8,259 bases of DNA from a virus (taxonomy: Duplodnaviria; Heunggongvirae; Uroviricota; Caudoviricetes): the IMG/VR virus record IMGVR_UViG_2695420676_000017; one strand, given 5' to 3'. The number at the start of each line of letters is the position of its first letter. Positions within the stretch are counted from its first letter, which is position 1. The notes beneath the pieces are model-generated. The model ran no database searches. It saw nothing but the letters and a program-made list of their open reading frames with translations, and was not told the DNA's origin. The position numbers and the translations under genes are program-made. Shown here in pieces: positions 1 to 8,259 of this stretch.

Positions 1-645
<645 letters not shown>

Positions 646-648
646 TCC

Positions 649-1410
649 ATGCATCGTATAGACACGAAAACCGCGCAGAAGGATAAGTTCGGCGCGGGTA
701 AGAACGGTTTTACCCGTGGTAACCCCCAGACCGGCACACCTGCCACCGATCTGGATGATGACTACTTTGACATGTTGCAGGAAGAACTCTGCAGCGTGGT
801 GGAGGCATCCGGTGCCAGCCTGGAGAAGGGGCGGCATGACCAGCTGCTTACCGCGCTTCGTGCGCTGCTGTTAAGCCGCAAGAATCCGTTTGGCGATATC
901 AAATCTGATGGCACGGTGAAAACGGCTCTCGAAAACCTTGGTTTGGGAGAAGGTTCGGCATTACCCGTTGGTGTGCCTGTTCCGTGGCCTTCCGCCACTC
1001 CGCCAACGGGGTGGCTAAAATGTAACGGAGCAGTATTTTCTTCTGAAAAGTACCCAAATCTGGCAAAGGCTTACCCAACATTAAAATTACCAGATTTACG
1101 CGGTGAATTTATTCGTGGCTGGGATGATGGGCGCGGGATTGACTCTGGTCGTAACTTATTATCTGCACAGAATGATGCAATTCAGAATATTGTTGGTTCT
1201 TTTGGGCGTACCCAGCTTTTTAGAGACGTACTTAGTTCAGGGCCATTTAGTCAACATGGGCAAGTATTATCTACAGGTCTAAAGGAAGCCGCAATTATTG
1301 AGGGTTATGGCGCTTATAACTGGACATTCGACGCATCTCGCTCAGTTCGCACAGCATCTGAAACCCGCTCCCGTAACATCGCCTTTAATTATATTGTGAG
1401 GGCTGCATGA
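649..1410 (+). CDS. Phage tail fibre protein: constant N-terminal domain (residues 1 to about 100, ending LENLGLGE) fused at crossover site A to variable C-terminal receptor-binding cassette C1
   Basis: ATG at 649 with GGAG 7 nt upstream. C-terminal part has motifs shared with P2 gpH / Mu S / P1 S fibre tips ([17 protein letters not shown], terminal NIAFNYIVR). Stop overlaps the next start (ATGA at 1407-1410), typical fibre-chaperone coupling. Confidence 0.85.
926..951 (-). other. Crossover site A, 26-bp Hin/Gin/Pin/Cin-type recombination site (inverted relative to sites B and C)
   Basis: Reverse complement reads TTCTCCCAAACC-AA-GGTTTTCGAGAG: two 12-bp half-sites around a 2-bp core, closely resembling hix/gix-type sites (TTnTCnnAAACC nn GGTTT...). 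It lies exactly where the fibre sequence switches from constant to variable (codons for LGLGE). Confidence 0.75.
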
Positions 1411-2427: not shown

Positions 2428-2879
2428 TCTTACCGTCCAATGATTAACGCTGAGACGCTGGTATCTGAAGGAAAGGCTGCATTCAGTGGTTTGTCGACTT
2501 TGAACACAATCGTATTATTCCCCCTGACAGCGGCAAAAGAACAAACCGCCGTCGCGTATGAACCTGTAATATTACTGGATACACCACCATAAGCTGTTGT
2601 TGATACCAGAGGGATAACGCCCAGCACCTTATTAGGAAATACAAAGGGCAATGTGGCTGTGGCAATATAAGACTTATTAGAACCTGTAATGGCATAAGCA
2701 TTATCAGTCATTCCATTCATCGCCACTGGACCGCTTATACTTACAGTAACCATCTGAATGATTAGCCCGTCAGGTTGACGAATCACAAAATTTCCATTGC
2801 CACCAGTAACCGTCCAGAAAGACATATCAGGGATTTGGTTTTCCCCGTTGCCCACATTTCGTTTTGCCGCTTCTCCCAA

Positions 2880-4052
<1,173 letters not shown>

Positions 4053-4072: not shown

Positions 4073-4486
4073 TTACTCACCAACAGCCCACCAACTGTAA
4101 TGCATAGATACCGTGTCACTGGTTGATGACGTTCTGTAAGCAGAATTAAAGCCGGTTAACGTAGGGCCTTCTGGAGTCATCACGAACCCTCGCCCAGCGC
4201 CTAAAGGCGCACCGCCATCACCAGAATGGGTAAGAATGGCGCAGTCCGCTTTTTTAGGGAAAGGGATAGGAAATGTAATCCTCATTGTTTGCGTCGATAA
4301 TTTCGGCATAGCCTCGCCTCGACCATATTGCAGAATTTTACCGTTGGGTAATTTCATCCATCCATCACCACTGGCAAAAGAGGCCATGTCCGGTATCTGA
4401 TTTTCCCCTGTCCCTACATCCCGTTTTGCCGCTTCTCCCAAACCAACGTTTATGAAAATGCAGAAATAACGAGCAAATGGCATCAT
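4073..4486 (-). CDS. Tail-fibre variable C-terminal cassette C3 (silent cassette; the ORF extends through site C into the invertase-proximal flank but lacks the constant N-terminal domain)
   Basis: After the site-encoded GLGE it reads [16 protein letters not shown]..., sharing its first ~20 residues with C2 and then diverging. Stop TAA at 4073-4075. The upstream ATGs at 4481-4486 have at best AGGA with 0-3 nt spacing, so independent translation is doubtful. Confidence 0.65.
   Translation of the reverse strand: MMPFARYFCIFINVGLGEAAKRDVGTGENQIPDMASFASGDGWMKLPNGKILQYGRGEAMPKLSTQTMRITFPIPFPKKADCAILTHSGDGGAPLGAGRGFVMTPEGPTLTGFNSAYRTSSTSDTVSMHYSWWAVGE
4433..4458 (+). other. Crossover site C, 26-bp Hin/Gin/Pin-type recombination site next to the invertase gene
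   Basis: TTCTCCCAAACC-AA-CGTTTATGAAAA: variable-side half-site identical to A and B, outer half-site different. Same orientation as B, inverted relative to A. Confidence 0.75.
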
Positions 4487-4512
4487 TCCTGCTTTTGTCA
4501 GGGAGATCTACC

Positions 4513-5067
4513 ATGCTTATTGGCTATGTACGTGTGTCAACAAATGACCAGAACACAGATCTACAACGTAATGCGCTGAACTGTGCAGGATGCGAGCTGA
4601 TTTTTGAAGACAAGATAAGCGGTACAAAGTCCGAAAGGCCGGGACTGAAAAAACTGCTCAGGACATTATCGGCAGGCGATACGCTGGTGGTCTGGAAACT
4701 GGACCGACTGGGGCGCAGTATGCGGCATCTTGTCGTGCTGGTGGAGGAGTTGCGCGAACGAGGCATCAACTTTCGTAGTCTGACGGATTCAATTGATACC
4801 AGTACCCCAATGGGGCGCTTTTTCTTTCATGTGATGGGGGCCCTGGCTGAAATGGAACGAGAACTGATTGTTGAACGAACAAAAGCTGGACTGGAAGCTG
4901 CTCGCGCACAGGGACGAATTGGTGGACGTCGTCCCAAACTTACACCAGAACAATGGGCACAAGCCGGACGATTAATTGCATCAGGAGTTCCGCGCCAGAA
5001 AGTTGCGATTATCTATGATGTTGGCGTATCGACTTTGTATCAGAGGTTTCCGGCAGGAGATAAATAA
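4513..5067 (+). CDS. pin: Serine-recombinase DNA invertase of the Hin/Gin/Pin/Cin family
   Basis: 184 aa, MLIGYVRVSTNDQNTDLQRNAL... with the catalytic-serine motif (VRVSTNDQ), the WKLDRLGRS block and a C-terminal HTH, classic for this family. GGGAGA SD 6 nt upstream of ATG. Immediately flanked by crossover site C, as gin/cin/pin are in Mu/P1/e14. Confidence 0.92.
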   Translation: MLIGYVRVSTNDQNTDLQRNALNCAGCELIFEDKISGTKSERPGLKKLLRTLSAGDTLVVWKLDRLGRSMRHLVVLVEELRERGINFRSLTDSIDTSTPMGRFFFHVMGALAEMERELIVERTKAGLEAARAQGRIGGRRPKLTPEQWAQAGRLIASGVPRQKVAIIYDVGVSTLYQRFPAGDK

Positions 5068-5265
5068 AGACACAGCTCGTCGAATTCAAGAACGTGTGAG
5101 CCAATCTCATGATGATTCATTATTTTCACATAGAGTCAATGACAAAAAACGGCTGCAAGGTAAACCACAACGATGGCTTTGTTAATTGATAGCGGTTTTG
5201 GTACTAAATGATACAAATTAAAATGAATATCCTAGTGAATTACAACAATTTCAGGAGGAAATAGT

Positions 5266-5478
5266 ATGCCAAGAAAAACGCTAGAAAATTTGGTAAATGT
5301 TGCACGTCAGACTCAGGAAATAGCGGATAAGAGAAGCCGTTTTTTCGGGTATCTTGAACAGCATGGCTTGAAGAGGAATGAGGATAGTGCTCACCTTTTT
5401 GCTATGCATTTACGGTTGCAACACAATGAAAGAGATAATCTTGTCCATGAACTGATGTCCGGATTACATCATAAATAG
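5266..5478 (+). CDS. Hypothetical small protein (70 aa), AT-rich cargo gene
   Basis: Strong SD AGGAGG 7 nt upstream of ATG. No family recognised. Lies in the low-GC block. Confidence 0.45.
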   Translation: MPRKTLENLVNVARQTQEIADKRSRFFGYLEQHGLKRNEDSAHLFAMHLRLQHNERDNLVHELMSGLHHK

Positions 5479-5512
5479 TGCATCATTCGAGCAAGAATAT
5501 TATAAGACAATA

Positions 5513-5535
5513 AACCAGCCAAAAACTGGCTGGTT
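5513..5535. terminator. Putative hairpin between convergent genes (possible terminator for the minus-strand operon and/or the small plus-strand ORF)
   Basis: AACCAGCC-aaaaact-GGCTGGTT, 8-bp stem; on the minus strand it is followed by a U-rich tract (UAUUGUCUUAUAAUA). Confidence 0.4.
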
Positions 5536-5562
5536 GAACGTTAACTTTTTGAATTTAATCAA

Positions 5563-5907
5563 TTAACTTTGGTGTATGTCTTGGTAAGTCTCATCCGTCA
5601 GAGCCAATTTCATGCAAATATCATCGTTAAGACTGACAATATCTTCGATCAGTTTATTGATCTCGAAATCGTTAAGTTTTGATACTGTTGCTTGAACTCG
5701 CCCCTCATCGCCAGTGGCATCAAACTTAGTCAGTTCCTTACATAATTCATCGAACCTGCTTTGTAAGGCATTTGGAATATCATCGGCTGTTTTAAGATGC
5801 CCAAGGCTAAAAACATACGAATTAATCAAGCGTTCTTGAATACTTCCATGGCCCGCAAGAGTAAGTACTGCAGTATGAAATTTTTCATGTGCATACTTTA
5901 AGGACAT
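5563..5907 (-). CDS. Hypothetical protein (114 aa), second gene of a two-gene AT-rich operon
   Basis: ATG with GGAG 7 nt upstream, 51 nt after the stop of the upstream gene. No transmembrane segment and no motif I recognise. Confidence 0.6.
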   Translation of the reverse strand: MSLKYAHEKFHTAVLTLAGHGSIQERLINSYVFSLGHLKTADDIPNALQSRFDELCKELTKFDATGDEGRVQATVSKLNDFEINKLIEDIVSLNDDICMKLALTDETYQDIHQS

Positions 5908-5958
5908 ATCTGGTCTCCGTGACTTATAACCTCAACCGACATAAATGGGGTTAAGTGA

Positions 5959-6990
5959 TTATTCTGAAACAATAGTGTTGAACTGACCTATAGAAACAGC
6001 ACCCTTTTCAATTACCTCTAAGTAACTGATTTTAATATGAGAGTTGTTTGACAAAGCGTCAACAATAGCTGTCAACTCATCTTGGGTGATAACATCAGCT
6101 GAAGCTTTGATTGTGAAGCATTCGTCATTAGAGACCCTAACAACGTTAATATTAATATCCTGATTTGTTGGCCCTGTTCTGGTTACACCTTTGATGGAAA
6201 ATATATCAGTTCGTTCTTTACGTTCTCTATCTACAGATTGTCGGCTGTTGTAGGTATTTAGGTCTTGTCGTGTTAGTTTCTCATTTCCTAAAGTCACGGT
6301 TTCGACAGTAGGATCAGCAGCTAATTGCTTCACTAAAGCACTTTTACCTGCTTGTCCGTGACTAGTAACTTTATCGCTAATCGCTGATTTCCCATAGATT
6401 TTATAATCTAATGTTGCTTCTATGGCTTTGTTTATGCCATCGGATGTGGTTTTTGCAATTTCAACCTGCCGATCAGTTGCATGTCTTTCTGTTACGGCAT
6501 TTTCTGAAATGTAGTGATAACCACATGTGCTGGCCGCGCCAACCATTGTGATTATAACAAGCATTTTCTGCCAGCCGTTCAGTCCAGACATAGTATCTCG
6601 CAAAAAATCAGTTACTGCGTTGATGATCTTGTCAGTGGTGCCTTCCGCATCACTAGAACCTTCGCTAATTTTAAAATTTATATCAAGTCGTTGCTTGTCT
6701 TCATTAGTCAAGCGTTGAAGATTCTGCGATCCGTATCGTATGGTTGCAAACGCCCGCTGTATCTCCTCGTTGAGCATTGACATACCAAACAACATTGCTG
6801 ATGTAATTGATGAATGATACCGCTCTCCTTTTACATTTATGTCTAAGGATGGCCAGCCTGCAAACTTTACGTTAGGGAAAATAAACTCTTTAGAATCAAG
6901 CCCCTCTCGGGCTTTCATTTCTTCCAGAAAGTTTAGAAAATCATCTTCACTACGGATCAGAAAATCAATCGAATCCACAGTAGCTTCCAT
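5959..6990 (-). CDS. Hypothetical single-pass membrane protein (343 aa), first gene of the operon
   Basis: ATG at 6990 with AAGGA 7 nt upstream. One hydrophobic stretch (about residues 141-158, MLVIITMVGAASTC...) between a ~140-aa N-terminal domain and a ~180-aa C-terminal domain. No recognisable catalytic motif. Confidence 0.7.
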   Translation of the reverse strand: MEATVDSIDFLIRSEDDFLNFLEEMKAREGLDSKEFIFPNVKFAGWPSLDINVKGERYHSSITSAMLFGMSMLNEEIQRAFATIRYGSQNLQRLTNEDKQRLDINFKISEGSSDAEGTTDKIINAVTDFLRDTMSGLNGWQKMLVIITMVGAASTCGYHYISENAVTERHATDRQVEIAKTTSDGINKAIEATLDYKIYGKSAISDKVTSHGQAGKSALVKQLAADPTVETVTLGNEKLTRQDLNTYNSRQSVDRERKERTDIFSIKGVTRTGPTNQDININVVRVSNDECFTIKASADVITQDELTAIVDALSNNSHIKISYLEVIEKGAVSIGQFNTIVSE

Positions 6991-7044
6991 ATGAATATCC
7001 TTATTAAATTCTCATTCGGTTACTGTTTATTGTTGACTGATCAA

Positions 7045-7075
7045 TAAAAAAGCCCGCAATTTGCGGGCTTCTTTC
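7045..7075. terminator. Bidirectional rho-independent terminator (downstream of ssrA on the minus strand)
   Basis: AAAAAA-GCCCGC-aattt-GCGGGC-TTCTTTC: GC-rich stem flanked by an A-run on one side and a T-run on the other, so it reads as a terminator on both strands. Confidence 0.6.
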
Positions 7076-7199
7076 ACACTTGAGAGCCGCGGCTCCTTTG
7101 CGTATCCTTTTTTGTCTCCTCACCGTCTGGTCGGTGTCCTGCTGAGACTGCTAACTTCCTGTTTTTGTTGGTGTTGTCCTTACACCGTCCAATCATGAT

Positions 7200-7562
7200 T
7201 GGTGGAGCTGGCGGGAGTTGAACCCGCGTCCGAAATTCCTACATCCTCGGTACTACATGCTTAGTCAGTCTTTACATTCGCTTGCCAGCTGCGGACGGAC
7301 ACGCCACTAACAAACTAGCCTGATTAAGTTTTAACGCTTCAACCCCAGGCAGGGCTTCCACGCGATCTCTTTTGGGTTTGACCTCTCTTGATCCCCGTCC
7401 TAAGAGCGGAGGCTAGGGAGAGAGGGCTCTAAGCAGGTTATTAAGCTGCTAAAGCGTAGTTTTCGTCGTTTGCGACTATTTTTTGCGGCTTTTTACGAGG
7501 CCAACCGCCCCTCGGCATGCACCTTGGGTTTCGCAAATCCCGTCGAATCCAGAATCAGCCCC
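7200..7562 (-). ncRNA. ssrA: tmRNA (SsrA, 10Sa RNA), complete 363-nt mature sequence
   Basis: Minus strand reads GGGGCUGAUUCUGGAUUCGACGGG ... GGUUCAACUCCCGCCAGCUCCACCA, which matches the enterobacterial tmRNA as I recall it, including the 3' CCA end, and lies downstream of smpB as expected. Confidence 0.95.
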
Positions 7563-7576
7563 AATGTGTAAAGGTA

Positions 7577-7606
7577 AGTATACCAGATTTATGAGCGCCA
7601 TGACCA
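7577..7606 (-). promoter_or_regulatory. Candidate sigma70 promoter of ssrA
   Basis: On the minus strand: TGGTCA (-35-like), 18-bp spacer, TATACT (-10-like), ending 14 nt before the mature tmRNA 5' end, consistent with a short processed leader. Pattern match only. Confidence 0.4.
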
Positions 7607-7776
7607 GCCTCAATGGCGTTATCGTTAAAGATTTAGCACCCATGTAGCCTGATTTTTATTCGATTAAGCAATGGGATGGCAACATTTGTGTCGGATGTGA
7701 TAGCCAATAAGATGTTGATTCGCGCCGCCGGAGAGGGAGGCGCGGTGAGGAACTGGTCAATAATTGGAGTGCAGGT

Positions 7777-8259
7777 TTAACGGTGGGCGTTTTTCATGAT
7801 ACGTGCTTTATCCACCTGCCATTCGCGTTCTTTGATATCTGAACGTTTATCGTGCTGTTTTTTACCTTTGGCGACGCCGATTTTCACTTTGCACCAGGCA
7901 TTTTTCCAGTACAGGGAGAGCGCCACTACGGTATAGCCTTCTCGATTGACGCGACCGTACAATGAGTCCAGTTCGCGCTGGTTGAGAAGTAACTTGCGGG
8001 TACGGGTAGGATCGCACACCACATGCGTGGAGGCCACGGCCATTGGCGTGATGTTAGCGCCAAACAGAAATGCCTCTCCGTCACGCAGAAGGACGTAGCT
8101 GTCGCTGATATTGGCTTTTCCTGCGCGCAGGGATTTAACCTCCCAGCCTTGCAGGGCAAGTCCCGCTTCGAACTCTTCTTCGATAAAGTATTCGTGACGG
8201 GCGCGCTTGTTAAGCGCGATGGTCGCTGAACCAGGTTTATGTGCTTTTTTCTTCGTCAT
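7777..8259 (-). CDS. smpB: SsrA-binding protein SmpB (complete, 160 aa; start codon at the last bases of the window)
   Basis: Translation [47 protein letters not shown]... is recognisable as SmpB; conserved smpB-ssrA synteny. Confidence 0.95.

What the first reader, a model, noticed from the sequence alone, without database searches (positions are those of the whole stretch)
5563..6990. Unassigned AT-rich two-gene operon (343-aa membrane-anchored protein + 114-aa protein) in the cargo slot between the tail-fibre invertase and ssrA
Two tightly linked minus-strand genes, each with a good SD, sit in a block of roughly one-third G+C (hand counts of 60-bp lines at 5161 and 6001 give about 32-33%), against about 60% in the neighbouring fibre constant region. 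The position, just past the fibre/invertase module and next to the ssrA integration hotspot, is where prophages and islands carry morons and anti-phage defence genes (in e14 the restriction gene mcrA sits beside pinE). The larger protein has one predicted transmembrane helix between two soluble domains; the smaller has none. I recognise neither as a known defence, toxin-antitoxin, lysis or superinfection-exclusion family, so this is the best candidate for an undescribed system. Function is entirely inference.
Basis: partly seen in the sequence, partly recalled or inferred. Interest (0 to 1): 0.8.

Follow-up and report, generated by a model that had tools for sequence, protein, structure and literature searches.

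The report
Orphan prophage membrane protein beside ssrA
The larger of the two genes belongs to a widespread but unstudied family of single-pass membrane proteins that temperate phages carry as a stand-alone cargo gene, very often right behind their repressor gene where phage lambda keeps its rexAB exclusion genes, so it is a good untested candidate for a new anti-phage protein; the small second gene is a local add-on, not a conserved partner.

Summary
Both genes are real. A343 (5959-6990, minus strand) and B114 (5563-5907, minus strand) lie 51 nt apart between two strong hairpin terminators in a 39% G+C block next to ssrA in an E. coli prophage remnant. They do not form a conserved two-gene system.

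A343:
- It belongs to a large family (833 representatives at 50% identity) with no Pfam, NCBIfam, PADLOC or PDB-sequence match.
- The confident AlphaFold model (pLDDT 86.6) shows an N-terminal alpha/beta domain, a conserved hydrophobic helix, a helical hairpin and a C-terminal OB-fold.
- Relatives stand alone in cargo slots of lambdoid, Mu-like and P2-like prophages.
- In 16 of 38 viral contigs, and in phages phi458, PhiR12 and Acinetobacter prophages, the relative follows the cI repressor directly, in lambda's rexAB position. It shows no homology to RexA or RexB.
- A published machine-learning screen (DefensePredictor, 2026) lists this cluster as a predicted defence gene. I found no record of a test.

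B114:
- It occurs only beside near-identical A343 copies.
- It is under purifying selection (dN/dS 0.15).

Best reading: A343 is a lysogen-expressed, membrane-anchored, single-protein exclusion or defence factor. The mechanism is inferred.

The parts
5959..6990 (-). A343 gene (343 aa; RefSeq WP_021530618.1), a member of a large uncharacterised family (phrog_6191)
   Evidence: ORF. It is 100% identical to the annotated CDS in NZ_CP070071. phrog_6191 matches at 6.8e-38. The word-index search found 76 clusters and the full profile search found 833 representatives. No Pfam, NCBIfam or PADLOC hit.
6586..6966 (-). A343 N-terminal alpha/beta domain (aa 9-135). It is the most conserved part of the family, with motifs GWPxLxINVKG and EGS[ST].
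6511..6576 (-). A343 hydrophobic helix (aa 139-160), a putative single transmembrane segment
   Evidence: An uncharged hydrophobic stretch of 19-33 residues lies at the same alignment position in nearly all of the 66 diverse relatives. Kyte-Doolittle hydropathy is 1.6 or more in 46 of 66 (1.41 in the window copy). Flanking charges do not settle the topology.
6319..6465 (-). A343 helical hairpin (aa 176-224), preceded by a low-confidence linker (aa 163-178)
   Evidence: Secondary structure and pLDDT of the second model.
5971..6306 (-). A343 C-terminal OB-fold domain (aa 229-340)
5908..5958 (-). 51-nt spacer between A343 and B114, carrying the B114 Shine-Dalgarno sequence (GGAG)
   Evidence: Sequence. 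There is no terminator-like structure (z -0.07).
5563..5907 (-). B114 gene (114 aa, acidic, no hydrophobic segment; WP_000054185.1), a lineage-restricted companion of A343
   Evidence: ORF. pI is 4.9. Only close relatives exist. dN/dS is 0.14-0.15. No hit in Pfam, PHROGs, NCBIfam, PADLOC, PDB sequences or the phage collection.
5513..5535 (.). Hairpin terminator shared by the convergent genes B114 (-) and C70 (+)
   Evidence: Terminator scan. Fold energy is -15.2 kcal/mol, z -4.8.
5266..5478 (+). C70: a 70-aa basic ORF (WP_001137529.1) in the same AT-rich insert, on the opposite strand. It travels with pin and is not part of the A343 cassette.
   Evidence: ORF. pI is 9.4. No family or phage hit. 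It is present with pin in L015 but replaced by an SRAP/YedK-like gene in L033 and L034.
7046..7074 (-). ssrA terminator hairpin, the upstream limit of the cassette. The 55 nt from here to the A343 ATG hold the Shine-Dalgarno sequence but no good sigma-70 promoter.
   Evidence: Fold energy is -19.3 kcal/mol, z -5.5. Promoter scan. Sequence.

Best explanation
A343 is a stand-alone accessory ('moron') gene of temperate phages. It encodes a single-pass inner-membrane protein made in the lysogen, and it most likely protects the lysogen against other phages by superinfection exclusion or abortive infection at or near the DNA-entry step.

Proposed working (inferred): the conserved N-terminal alpha/beta domain, which has no signal peptide ahead of a 140-residue fold, stays in the cytoplasm. 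The hydrophobic helix spans the membrane. The helical hairpin and the more variable C-terminal OB-fold face the periplasm, where they would recognise a component of an incoming phage or the host entry machinery. The N-terminal domain would be the conserved effector or oligomerisation module.

B114 is a small acidic cytoplasmic protein added to the cassette only in the E. coli-type lineage. It may modulate A343 or be an unrelated passenger.

Shown:
- The genes, the cassette anatomy, the fold, the family size, the recurrent position behind cI, and the lack of homology to known systems.

Inferred:
- Membrane insertion and topology, expression in the lysogen for this copy, the anti-phage role, and the division of labour between the domains.
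For: 1. Position of relatives.
- A343 relatives lie 25-141 bp downstream of, and co-oriented with, a cI-type HTH + Peptidase_S24 repressor in 16 of 38 IMG/VR loci, with eight different repressor sequences.
- The same arrangement is seen in metagenomic lambdoids between cI and N, in phage phi458, in PhiR12_2 (read; PhiR12_1 and _4/_5 match likewise), in Photorhabdus and in Acinetobacter prophages.
- This is the slot of lambda rexA-rexB, which is transcribed with cI in lysogens (established knowledge).

2. Other positions are also typical cargo slots.
- Prophage ends next to ssrA, tRNA-Pro or icd|int.
- The provirus edge in 9 of 38 IMG/VR loci.
- Next to DinI and tail fibres, next to an Arc/Ant immI-like region inside a tail module, in a Mu-like head module and in a tail module.
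- No partner gene is conserved across these contexts.

3. Cassette signature: 39% G+C against about 50-57% in the flanks, bracketed by terminators.

4. The hydrophobic helix is conserved in position across relatives that are 15-80% identical.

5. The C-terminal domain is a confident OB-fold. Its best structural matches include periplasmic or secreted OB proteins (SilF/CusF, AB5 toxin B subunits, YgiW).

6. Independent computational support: DefensePredictor Table S10 lists the 30%-identity cluster whose representative is WP_021530618.1, which is this protein. It is labelled 'Predicted novel defense gene', with a member scoring mean log-odds 6.86. In that study 45% of the predicted units that were tested validated, and the validation rate rose with log-odds.

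7. Precedents.
- DS-34, a non-homologous membrane protein cloned together with its upstream cI gene, is a validated defence system.
- SNIPE shows that a membrane-anchored protein can act at genome injection.
Against: - No experiment on any family member was found.
- No catalytic or known effector motif was identified in the N-terminal domain.
- Topology is unresolved by the positive-inside rule: mean K+R is 2.0 on the N flank and 2.3 on the C flank.
- The window copy's helix has modest hydropathy (1.41), so membrane insertion is not proven.
- The window copy is not behind a repressor, and no good promoter was found upstream. Its expression may depend on read-through of the ssrA terminator.
- OB-folds are functionally promiscuous.
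- A position in a cargo slot fits any lysogenic-conversion function.
- PADLOC models give no hit for A343 or for 68 relatives.
- The Foldseek link to a DUF6575-containing phage protein (E 2e-6, TM-score only 0.27) is too weak to transfer a function.
Confidence: 0.5

Rival explanations
1. One reading: A343 and B114 form an obligatory two-gene defence or toxin-antitoxin-like system. A343 would be a membrane toxin or effector, and B114 its cytoplasmic inhibitor or sensor.
For: - The genes are co-oriented, with a 51-nt unstructured spacer, each has a Shine-Dalgarno sequence, and one terminator follows the pair.
- Base composition matches: G+C 0.395 and 0.386, GC3 0.337 and 0.339.
- The pair is kept together in two different downstream contexts: C70 + pin in the window and L015, and an SRAP-like gene in L033 and L034.
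- B114 is under purifying selection.
- The trio is annotated as consecutive genes in Salmonella Derby, and near-identical (same 90% cluster) copies of A343 in Citrobacter and of B114 in Klebsiella.
Against: - B114 is confined to neighbours of A343 copies that are at least 97% identical.
- It is absent from the 81%-identical ssrA-adjacent relative and from every other context examined.
- No analogous small partner is conserved next to relatives.
- There is no match to a toxin-antitoxin or defence model.
- Synonymous divergence of B114 (0.5) is about twice that of the adjoining A343 3' end (0.25), which hints at separate histories.
Confidence: 0.15
2. A343 is a lysogenic-conversion factor unrelated to phage defence. 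It would be an envelope protein that alters host physiology, for example metal or envelope-stress handling, adhesion or serum resistance, in the manner of lambda bor/lom-type cargo.
For: - It occupies cargo slots and is presumably expressed in lysogens.
- The hosts are enteric, plant-associated and marine bacteria.
Against: - SilF/CusF identity is only 13%, and no metal-binding motif was shown.
- The family's most frequent slot in the viral contigs sampled (16 of 38) is the immunity region, where the characterised cargo consists of exclusion systems (rexAB, DS-34).
- The machine-learning model trained on defence proteins scores it positive.
Confidence: 0.2
3. A343 serves the phage's own life cycle, for example a membrane-bound modulator of the lysis-lysogeny decision, of induction, or of the phage's own DNA entry or lysis timing. 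It would not protect the host.
For: - It is adjacent to and probably co-transcribed with cI in many phages.
- It occurs inside head or tail modules in some phages.
Against: - Its positions vary across unrelated phage types (lambdoid, Mu-like, P2-like remnant), and one relative lies in a non-phage context.
- In the phage collection searched, only 7 records hold a relative, so most sequenced phages lack it.
- It persists in a degraded prophage remnant next to ssrA, at 99% identity or more across the 46 of 5426 complete E. coli genomes that carry it. That fits a host-beneficial gene better.
Confidence: 0.1

Closest known systems
Phage lambda RexA/RexB (abortive-infection exclusion system in the immunity region)
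   Same: Relatives of A343 occupy the same slot, immediately downstream of and co-oriented with cI and, where seen, before N. Both include a membrane component and are prophage cargo.
   Different: There is no sequence relationship: hhalign probability is 0.2% to RexA and 0.3% to RexB. A343 is one protein with one hydrophobic helix and an OB-fold, whereas Rex is a soluble sensor plus a four-helix channel protein. The window copy is not next to a repressor.
DS-34 of DefensePredictor (cI + 323-aa AbiZ/DUF6161-like membrane protein; validated against phages Bas3 and Bas19)
   Same: It has the same genomic logic: a hypothetical membrane protein transcribed behind a prophage cI. It is of similar size, and the same study predicts both as defence genes.
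   Different: It is not homologous (hhalign probability 0.1%). DS-34B has a coiled coil at 77-142 and a transmembrane region at 184-237 and no OB-fold. DS-34 has been tested and A343 has not.
SNIPE / PD-lambda-1 (membrane-bound GIY-YIG nuclease that cuts phage DNA during injection)
   Same: It is a single protein anchored by one transmembrane helix, constitutively present, and it acts where the phage genome enters. That makes it a plausible functional analogue.
   Different: SNIPE has an N-terminal transmembrane helix, DUF4041 and a GIY-YIG nuclease, all cytoplasmic. A343 has a central helix and no nuclease, DUF4041 or PD-lambda-1 model match.
Classical inner-membrane superinfection-exclusion proteins (P22 SieA, HK97 gp15, T4 Imm/Sp, lactococcal Sie2009) - comparison from general knowledge and the titles and abstracts
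   Same: They are prophage- or phage-encoded cargo proteins, membrane-anchored and expressed in the lysogen, and they block DNA entry.
   Different: There is no detectable homology. Those proteins are mostly much smaller and lack an OB-fold or a 130-residue conserved N-terminal domain. I did not compare their sequences directly.
OB-fold proteins (SilF/CusF, AB5-toxin B subunits, SSB/PriB, YgiW)
   Different: Sequence identity is 5-13% and no ligand-binding motif is shared. The fold alone does not indicate a ligand.
DUF6575-containing phage protein (BFVD A0A8S5QA00). DUF6575 is named among the domains of the validated defence systems of Vassallo et al. 2022.
   Same: Foldseek aligns almost the full length (320 columns, E 2.3e-6). 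DUF6575 occurs in one validated defence system.
   Different: TM-score is only 0.26-0.27. No Pfam DUF6575 hit appears for A343 or for 68 relatives, and no PD-system model hit appears either. I could not find which system carries DUF6575.

Membership tests
phrog_6191 (PHROGs family of unknown function) | Full-length match to the family profile | tested here: met
   E 6.8e-38, residues 7-340 against profile positions 5-331 of 338.
Lambda RexAB | Sequence homology to RexA or RexB | tested here: not met
   hhalign of the 68-sequence family profile against RexA (probability 0.2%) and RexB (0.3%).
Lambda RexAB | Located directly downstream of cI on the same strand, in the immunity region | tested here: inconclusive
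   Met by many relatives. Not met by the window copy, which lies between ssrA and the pin invertase.
Lambda RexAB | Two components: a soluble sensor plus a polytopic membrane channel | tested here: not met
   The family is a single protein with one hydrophobic helix and no conserved partner.
Any defence system in PADLOC-DB v2 (includes the PD-T4, PD-T7 and PD-lambda systems) | Match to a system protein model | tested here: not met
   No hit at E up to 1 for A343, B114 or C70. Among 68 diverse relatives there were only scattered single-member hits at E 1e-4 or weaker.
Type II toxin-antitoxin pair (A343 + B114) | Conserved co-occurrence of the two genes across diverged homologues | tested here: not met
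   B114 occurs only beside A343 copies that are at least 97% identical. It is absent at 81% identity and below.
Type II toxin-antitoxin pair (A343 + B114) | Match to known toxin or antitoxin domains | tested here: not met
   Pfam, NCBIfam and PADLOC found nothing significant.
Type II toxin-antitoxin pair (A343 + B114) | Toxicity of one gene relieved by the other | not testable with these tools
   Needs expression experiments.
Phage 'moron' (autonomous accessory cassette) | Base composition unlike the neighbours, its own terminator, and variable presence and position among related phages | tested here: met
   G+C is 39% against about 50-57% in the flanks. Terminators lie on both sides. Relatives occupy at least seven kinds of slot and are absent from most phages. 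The cassette's own promoter was not found.
OB-fold superfamily (C-terminal domain only) | Five-stranded closed beta barrel superposable on solved OB domains | tested here: met
Bitopic inner-membrane protein | One membrane-spanning helix, with membrane localisation and a defined topology | tested here: inconclusive
   The hydrophobic stretch is conserved in position, but hydropathy in this copy is modest (1.41) and flank charges are ambiguous. Localisation needs experiments.
DUF6575-containing proteins | Match to Pfam DUF6575 | tested here: not met
   No such hit for A343 (E up to 1) or for 68 relatives (E up to 0.01). The only link is a low-TM-score Foldseek hit to a phage protein annotated with that domain.
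Experimentally validated DefensePredictor systems (DS-1 to DS-45) | Listed among the cloned and validated units | tested here: not met
   Accessions WP_021530618 and WP_001272876 occur only in Table S10, which holds predictions. The family motif strings searched (INVKG, LHINVKG, HSSLTSSM, YLEVIE and YLEVTEN) occur nowhere in the held supplementary sequences. No validated protein has a transmembrane segment near residue 140-160. Some tables were cut when stored.

The most novel reading that the evidence does not exclude
A343 founds a new class of one-protein transmembrane immune sensors that temperate phages from Enterobacterales to Acinetobacter and Shewanella use in place of RexAB. A variable periplasmic OB-fold would detect an incoming phage's tail-tip, tape-measure or ejection proteins, or its DNA, at the entry site. 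A conserved cytoplasmic domain of a so-far unmatched fold would then block entry or kill the cell. B114 would be a lineage-specific regulator of that switch.
Probability: 0.3. Interest if true: 0.75.

Novelty: new variant of a known kind. Interest (0 to 1): 0.55.

Why it matters
The immunity region of lambdoid phages is one of the best-studied stretches of DNA in biology, yet how its classic cargo RexAB works is still debated.

Here an unrelated and unstudied protein family takes the same slot behind at least eight different repressors. It also appears as a stand-alone cassette in Mu-like and P2-like prophages. It has 833 representatives at 50% identity and no Pfam entry.

If it excludes phages, it adds a widespread single-gene defence that current detection tools (PADLOC, Pfam-based) miss. 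It would also give a simple system for asking how a membrane protein senses infection across the inner membrane: one gene, two well-folded domains and one helix.

It is also directly testable. Isolated phages that carry a relative exist (phi458, the PhiR12 series), as do E. coli strains with this exact allele.

Tried and rejected
1. Known-family assignment. Pfam, NCBIfam, PADLOC and PHROGs were scanned for all three ORFs. Only phrog_6191 (unknown function) matched.

2. Looking for a family link through distant relatives. I scanned 68 diverse members against Pfam and PADLOC and searched a profile against PDB sequences. Only scattered single hits and transmembrane or coiled-coil noise such as MotB came back.

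3. The first AlphaFold model, from 27 sequences, was poor (pLDDT 62). It was replaced by a 66-sequence model (pLDDT 86.6).

4. Fold searches.
- The afdb50 library was unavailable.
- BFVD gave three full-length but low-TM-score hits to uncharacterised phage proteins.

5. The DUF6575 lead. The domain is named in Vassallo et al. 2022, but I could not find which system carries it, and no HMM link exists.

6. Homology to RexA, RexB and DS-34B was rejected by hhalign.

7. B114 and C70 gave no hit in the phage collection or PDB sequences. Three of the six B114 'homologues' proved to be frameshifted or truncated copies.

8. No RNA family lies in 5000-7700 other than tmRNA.

9. Literature.
- No paper mentions WP_021530618 or phrog_6191 in its main text.
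- PhiR12 gave no relevant paper. The phi458 paper found, by its title and abstract, concerns biofilm formation and virulence; I did not read it.
- Brenes & Laub 2025 (Cell Host Microbe, prophage defence systems against temperate phages) is not held, so I could not check whether it tested a relative.

11. Defining the island by att repeats. The only second copy of the ssrA 3' end in the reference strain is inverted, so simple attL/attR boundaries could not be drawn.
Full report
**What is in the window.** The window is E. coli chromosome. Bases 5100-7200 are 100% identical to NZ_CP070071.1 and several other complete genomes. From right to left on the minus strand it carries:
- smpB (7777-8259) and ssrA (7200-7562);
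- a strong terminator hairpin (7046-7074; -19.3 kcal/mol, z -5.5);
- A343 (5959-6990) and then B114 (5563-5907);
- a second hairpin (5513-5535).

On the plus strand lie a 70-aa ORF, C70 (5266-5478), convergent with B114, and the pin-type invertase (4477-5067; Resolvase 1.8e-51). To the left are invertible tail-fibre segments. RefSeq annotates all three small genes as hypothetical proteins: WP_021530618.1, WP_000054185.1 and WP_001137529.1. So does every source in the protein collection.

**Checking the observation.**
- The spacer has no structure, so the two genes would be co-transcribed.
- The block is 39.4% G+C with GC3 0.34. The fibre constant region is 55-57%, and smpB and ssrA are 52-53%.
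- A343 has one hydrophobic segment and B114 has none.
- B114 is a genuine gene. Against its only diverged relatives (85% identical), dN/dS is 0.14-0.15 at dS about 0.5.
- No sigma-70 promoter scoring 9 of 12 or better lies in the 55 nt between the ssrA terminator and the A343 start. The best hand-read candidate scores 8 of 12 and would remove the leader.

**The pair is not a conserved unit.**
- B114 has six clusters among 5.8 billion proteins.
- Three of them are frameshifted or truncated copies of the same allele.
- The two real variants sit beside A343 copies whose C-terminal ends are about 97% identical to the window's.
- In complete E. coli genomes the B114 + C70 DNA occurs in exactly the 46 of 5426 genomes that hold the whole region, all at 99% identity or more. 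That is a single lineage.
- The 81%-identical A343 of Mangrovibacter, likewise placed between ssrA and a pin invertase, has no B114 or C70.
- No more distant relative has B114 or any other recurrent neighbour.

In favour of some link, A343 and B114 share base composition. They also stay together in two different downstream contexts: C70 + pin, or an SRAP/YedK-like gene.

**A343 belongs to a large, unnamed family.**
- The word-index search found 76 clusters across Enterobacterales.
- A full profile search found 833 representatives at 50% identity, nearly all 315-360 aa long.
- A second profile search added Shewanella, Oceanimonas, Zobellella and Acinetobacter.
- Pseudoalteromonas and Pseudomonas relatives were found at the DNA level.
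- The only family hit is phrog_6191, of unknown function.
- Neither A343 nor 68 diverse relatives match any Pfam or PADLOC model consistently. A profile search of PDB sequences gave only noise from transmembrane segments.

**Structure.** With 66 sequences, AlphaFold2 gave a confident model (pLDDT 86.6, pTM 0.69):

| Residues | Predicted element |
|---|---|
| 9-135 | alpha/beta domain |
| 139-153 | helix within the hydrophobic stretch (139-160) |
| 163-178 | low-confidence linker |
| 176-224 | helical hairpin |
| 229-340 | beta barrel |

- The N-terminal domain got no match, because the hit list is filled by OB proteins. It carries the family's invariant motifs (GWPxLxINVKG, EGS[ST]) and is the most conserved region in the broad family (0.28 against 0.19 mean pairwise identity).
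- The hydrophobic stretch is conserved in position in nearly all of the 66 relatives and reaches Kyte-Doolittle 1.6 or more in 46.
- Flanking charges do not fix the orientation.
- I infer N-in/C-out, because a 140-residue folded N-terminal domain without a signal peptide is rarely exported (general knowledge of membrane-protein biogenesis).

**Genomic context is the main functional clue.** In 16 of 38 IMG/VR loci the relative starts 25-141 bp after a co-oriented HTH + Peptidase_S24 repressor, and eight different repressor sequences are involved. The same arrangement appears in:
- metagenomic lambdoids, with the order cro<, cI>, relative>, N>;
- phage phi458 and PhiR12_2, where the product is annotated 'T2SS GspM containing protein'; PhiR12_1 and _4/_5 match likewise;
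- Photorhabdus;
- Acinetobacter prophages.

This is the rexA-rexB position of lambda. Elsewhere the gene sits:
- at prophage ends next to ssrA, tRNA-Pro or icd|int;
- at the provirus edge, in 9 of 38 loci;
- beside DinI and tail fibres;
- next to an Arc/Ant region within a tail module;
- in a Mu-like head module and in a tail module;
- once beside a 1414-aa AAA_11/AAA_12 helicase, outside any recognisable phage.

A stand-alone, compositionally distinct cassette that moves between such slots is the hallmark of phage accessory genes expressed in lysogens.

**Comparison with the known.**
- A343 is not homologous to RexA or RexB.
- It is not homologous to DS-34B, the validated membrane protein cloned together with its upstream cI gene in the DefensePredictor study.
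- SNIPE/PD-lambda-1 shows that a one-helix membrane protein can act on injected DNA, but its domains differ.
- DefensePredictor's Table S10 lists the cluster represented by WP_021530618.1 as a 'Predicted novel defense gene', with a member at log-odds 6.86. Of the predicted units that study tested, 45% validated.
- The family is not among the tested units as far as the held tables show.
- Foldseek against viral models gave three full-length hits (E 2e-6 to 1e-5, TM-score 0.25-0.32). One carries DUF6575, a domain named among validated defence domains by Vassallo et al. 2022. No HMM supports that link.

**Conclusion.** A343 alone is the conserved entity. Its most likely role is lysogen-expressed, membrane-anchored exclusion of other phages (confidence about 0.5). 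The proposed N-in/C-out sensor-effector mechanism is inference. B114 is a lineage-restricted companion of unknown role. The rival readings are listed with their tests: an obligatory pair, non-defence lysogenic conversion, and a phage life-cycle function. The finding is a solid and cheaply testable candidate rather than a surprise. The family has already been flagged computationally as one of 1,041 predicted clusters, and prophage-borne membrane exclusion proteins are a known kind.

Noticed in passing
window 281-952 and 2870-3541; also 933-952, 2870-2889, 4432-4451; 1-85 and 3569-3653: A 672-nt perfect inverted repeat duplicates the end of the upstream tail gene and the constant 5' part of the fibre gene. 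Three copies of a Gin/Pin-type crossover core, AAACC(T/G)TGGTTTGGGAGAAG, point to a multi-site fibre inversion switch with three alternative C-terminal cassettes. An 85-nt exact direct repeat lies at 1-85 and 3569-3653. An inverted repeat this long and this perfect is unusual for such switches, and it could also be an assembly or rearrangement product.
   Followed up: partly
window 5266-5478 (+): C70 is a 70-aa basic ORF (pI 9.4) convergent with B114 and sharing its terminator hairpin. It has no relative outside this island and no family, phage or PDB hit. It travels with pin, not with A343.
   Followed up: partly
L001 (NZ_CP070071.1) 8863-8887 and 22101-22125: The only second copy of the 25-nt ssrA 3' end lies 13.2 kb away in inverted orientation. 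The P2-like tail remnant, fibres, pin, C70, B114 and A343 are therefore flanked by inverted rather than direct att-like repeats, which suggests a past inversion or a composite of elements.
   Followed up: no
L001 6443-7762: A SecB-like chaperone gene plus two hypothetical genes sit next to a site-specific integrase about 13 kb from A343. The trio resembles the three-gene SecB-containing defence system described in Vassallo et al. 2022. I did not verify identity.
   Followed up: no
window 7075-7199; L002 7774-7900; L040, L043: About 125 nt directly after the CCA end of ssrA are conserved between E. coli, Mangrovibacter and two IMG/VR contigs. They are followed in each by a hairpin terminator of different sequence and then the A343 relative. 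A purine-rich stretch, GACAAAAAAGGATACGCAAAGGAGCCGCGGCTC, is invariant. Its function is unknown; it may be a phage-supplied att region.
   Followed up: no
L033 896-1276; L034 726-887: In two short metagenomic contigs, a gene whose product begins MCGRFAQ, which I recognise as the SRAP/YedK (SOS-response-associated peptidase) type without having run a family scan on it, follows B114 in place of C70 and pin. This is a second downstream context for the A343-B114 pair.
   Followed up: partly
L031 4001-4990 and 5143-8990: A distant A343 relative (329 aa) lies outside any recognisable prophage. It is convergent with a 1414-aa AAA_11/AAA_12/AAA_30 helicase-like gene, which may mark a defence-island context.
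   Followed up: no
window 6034-6062 (-): A promoter-like site (TTGACG, 17-nt spacer, CATATT) inside the 3' end of A343, about 130 nt upstream of the B114 start, could give B114 its own transcript. The region as a whole has fewer promoter-like sites than shuffled sequence, so this may be chance.
   Followed up: no
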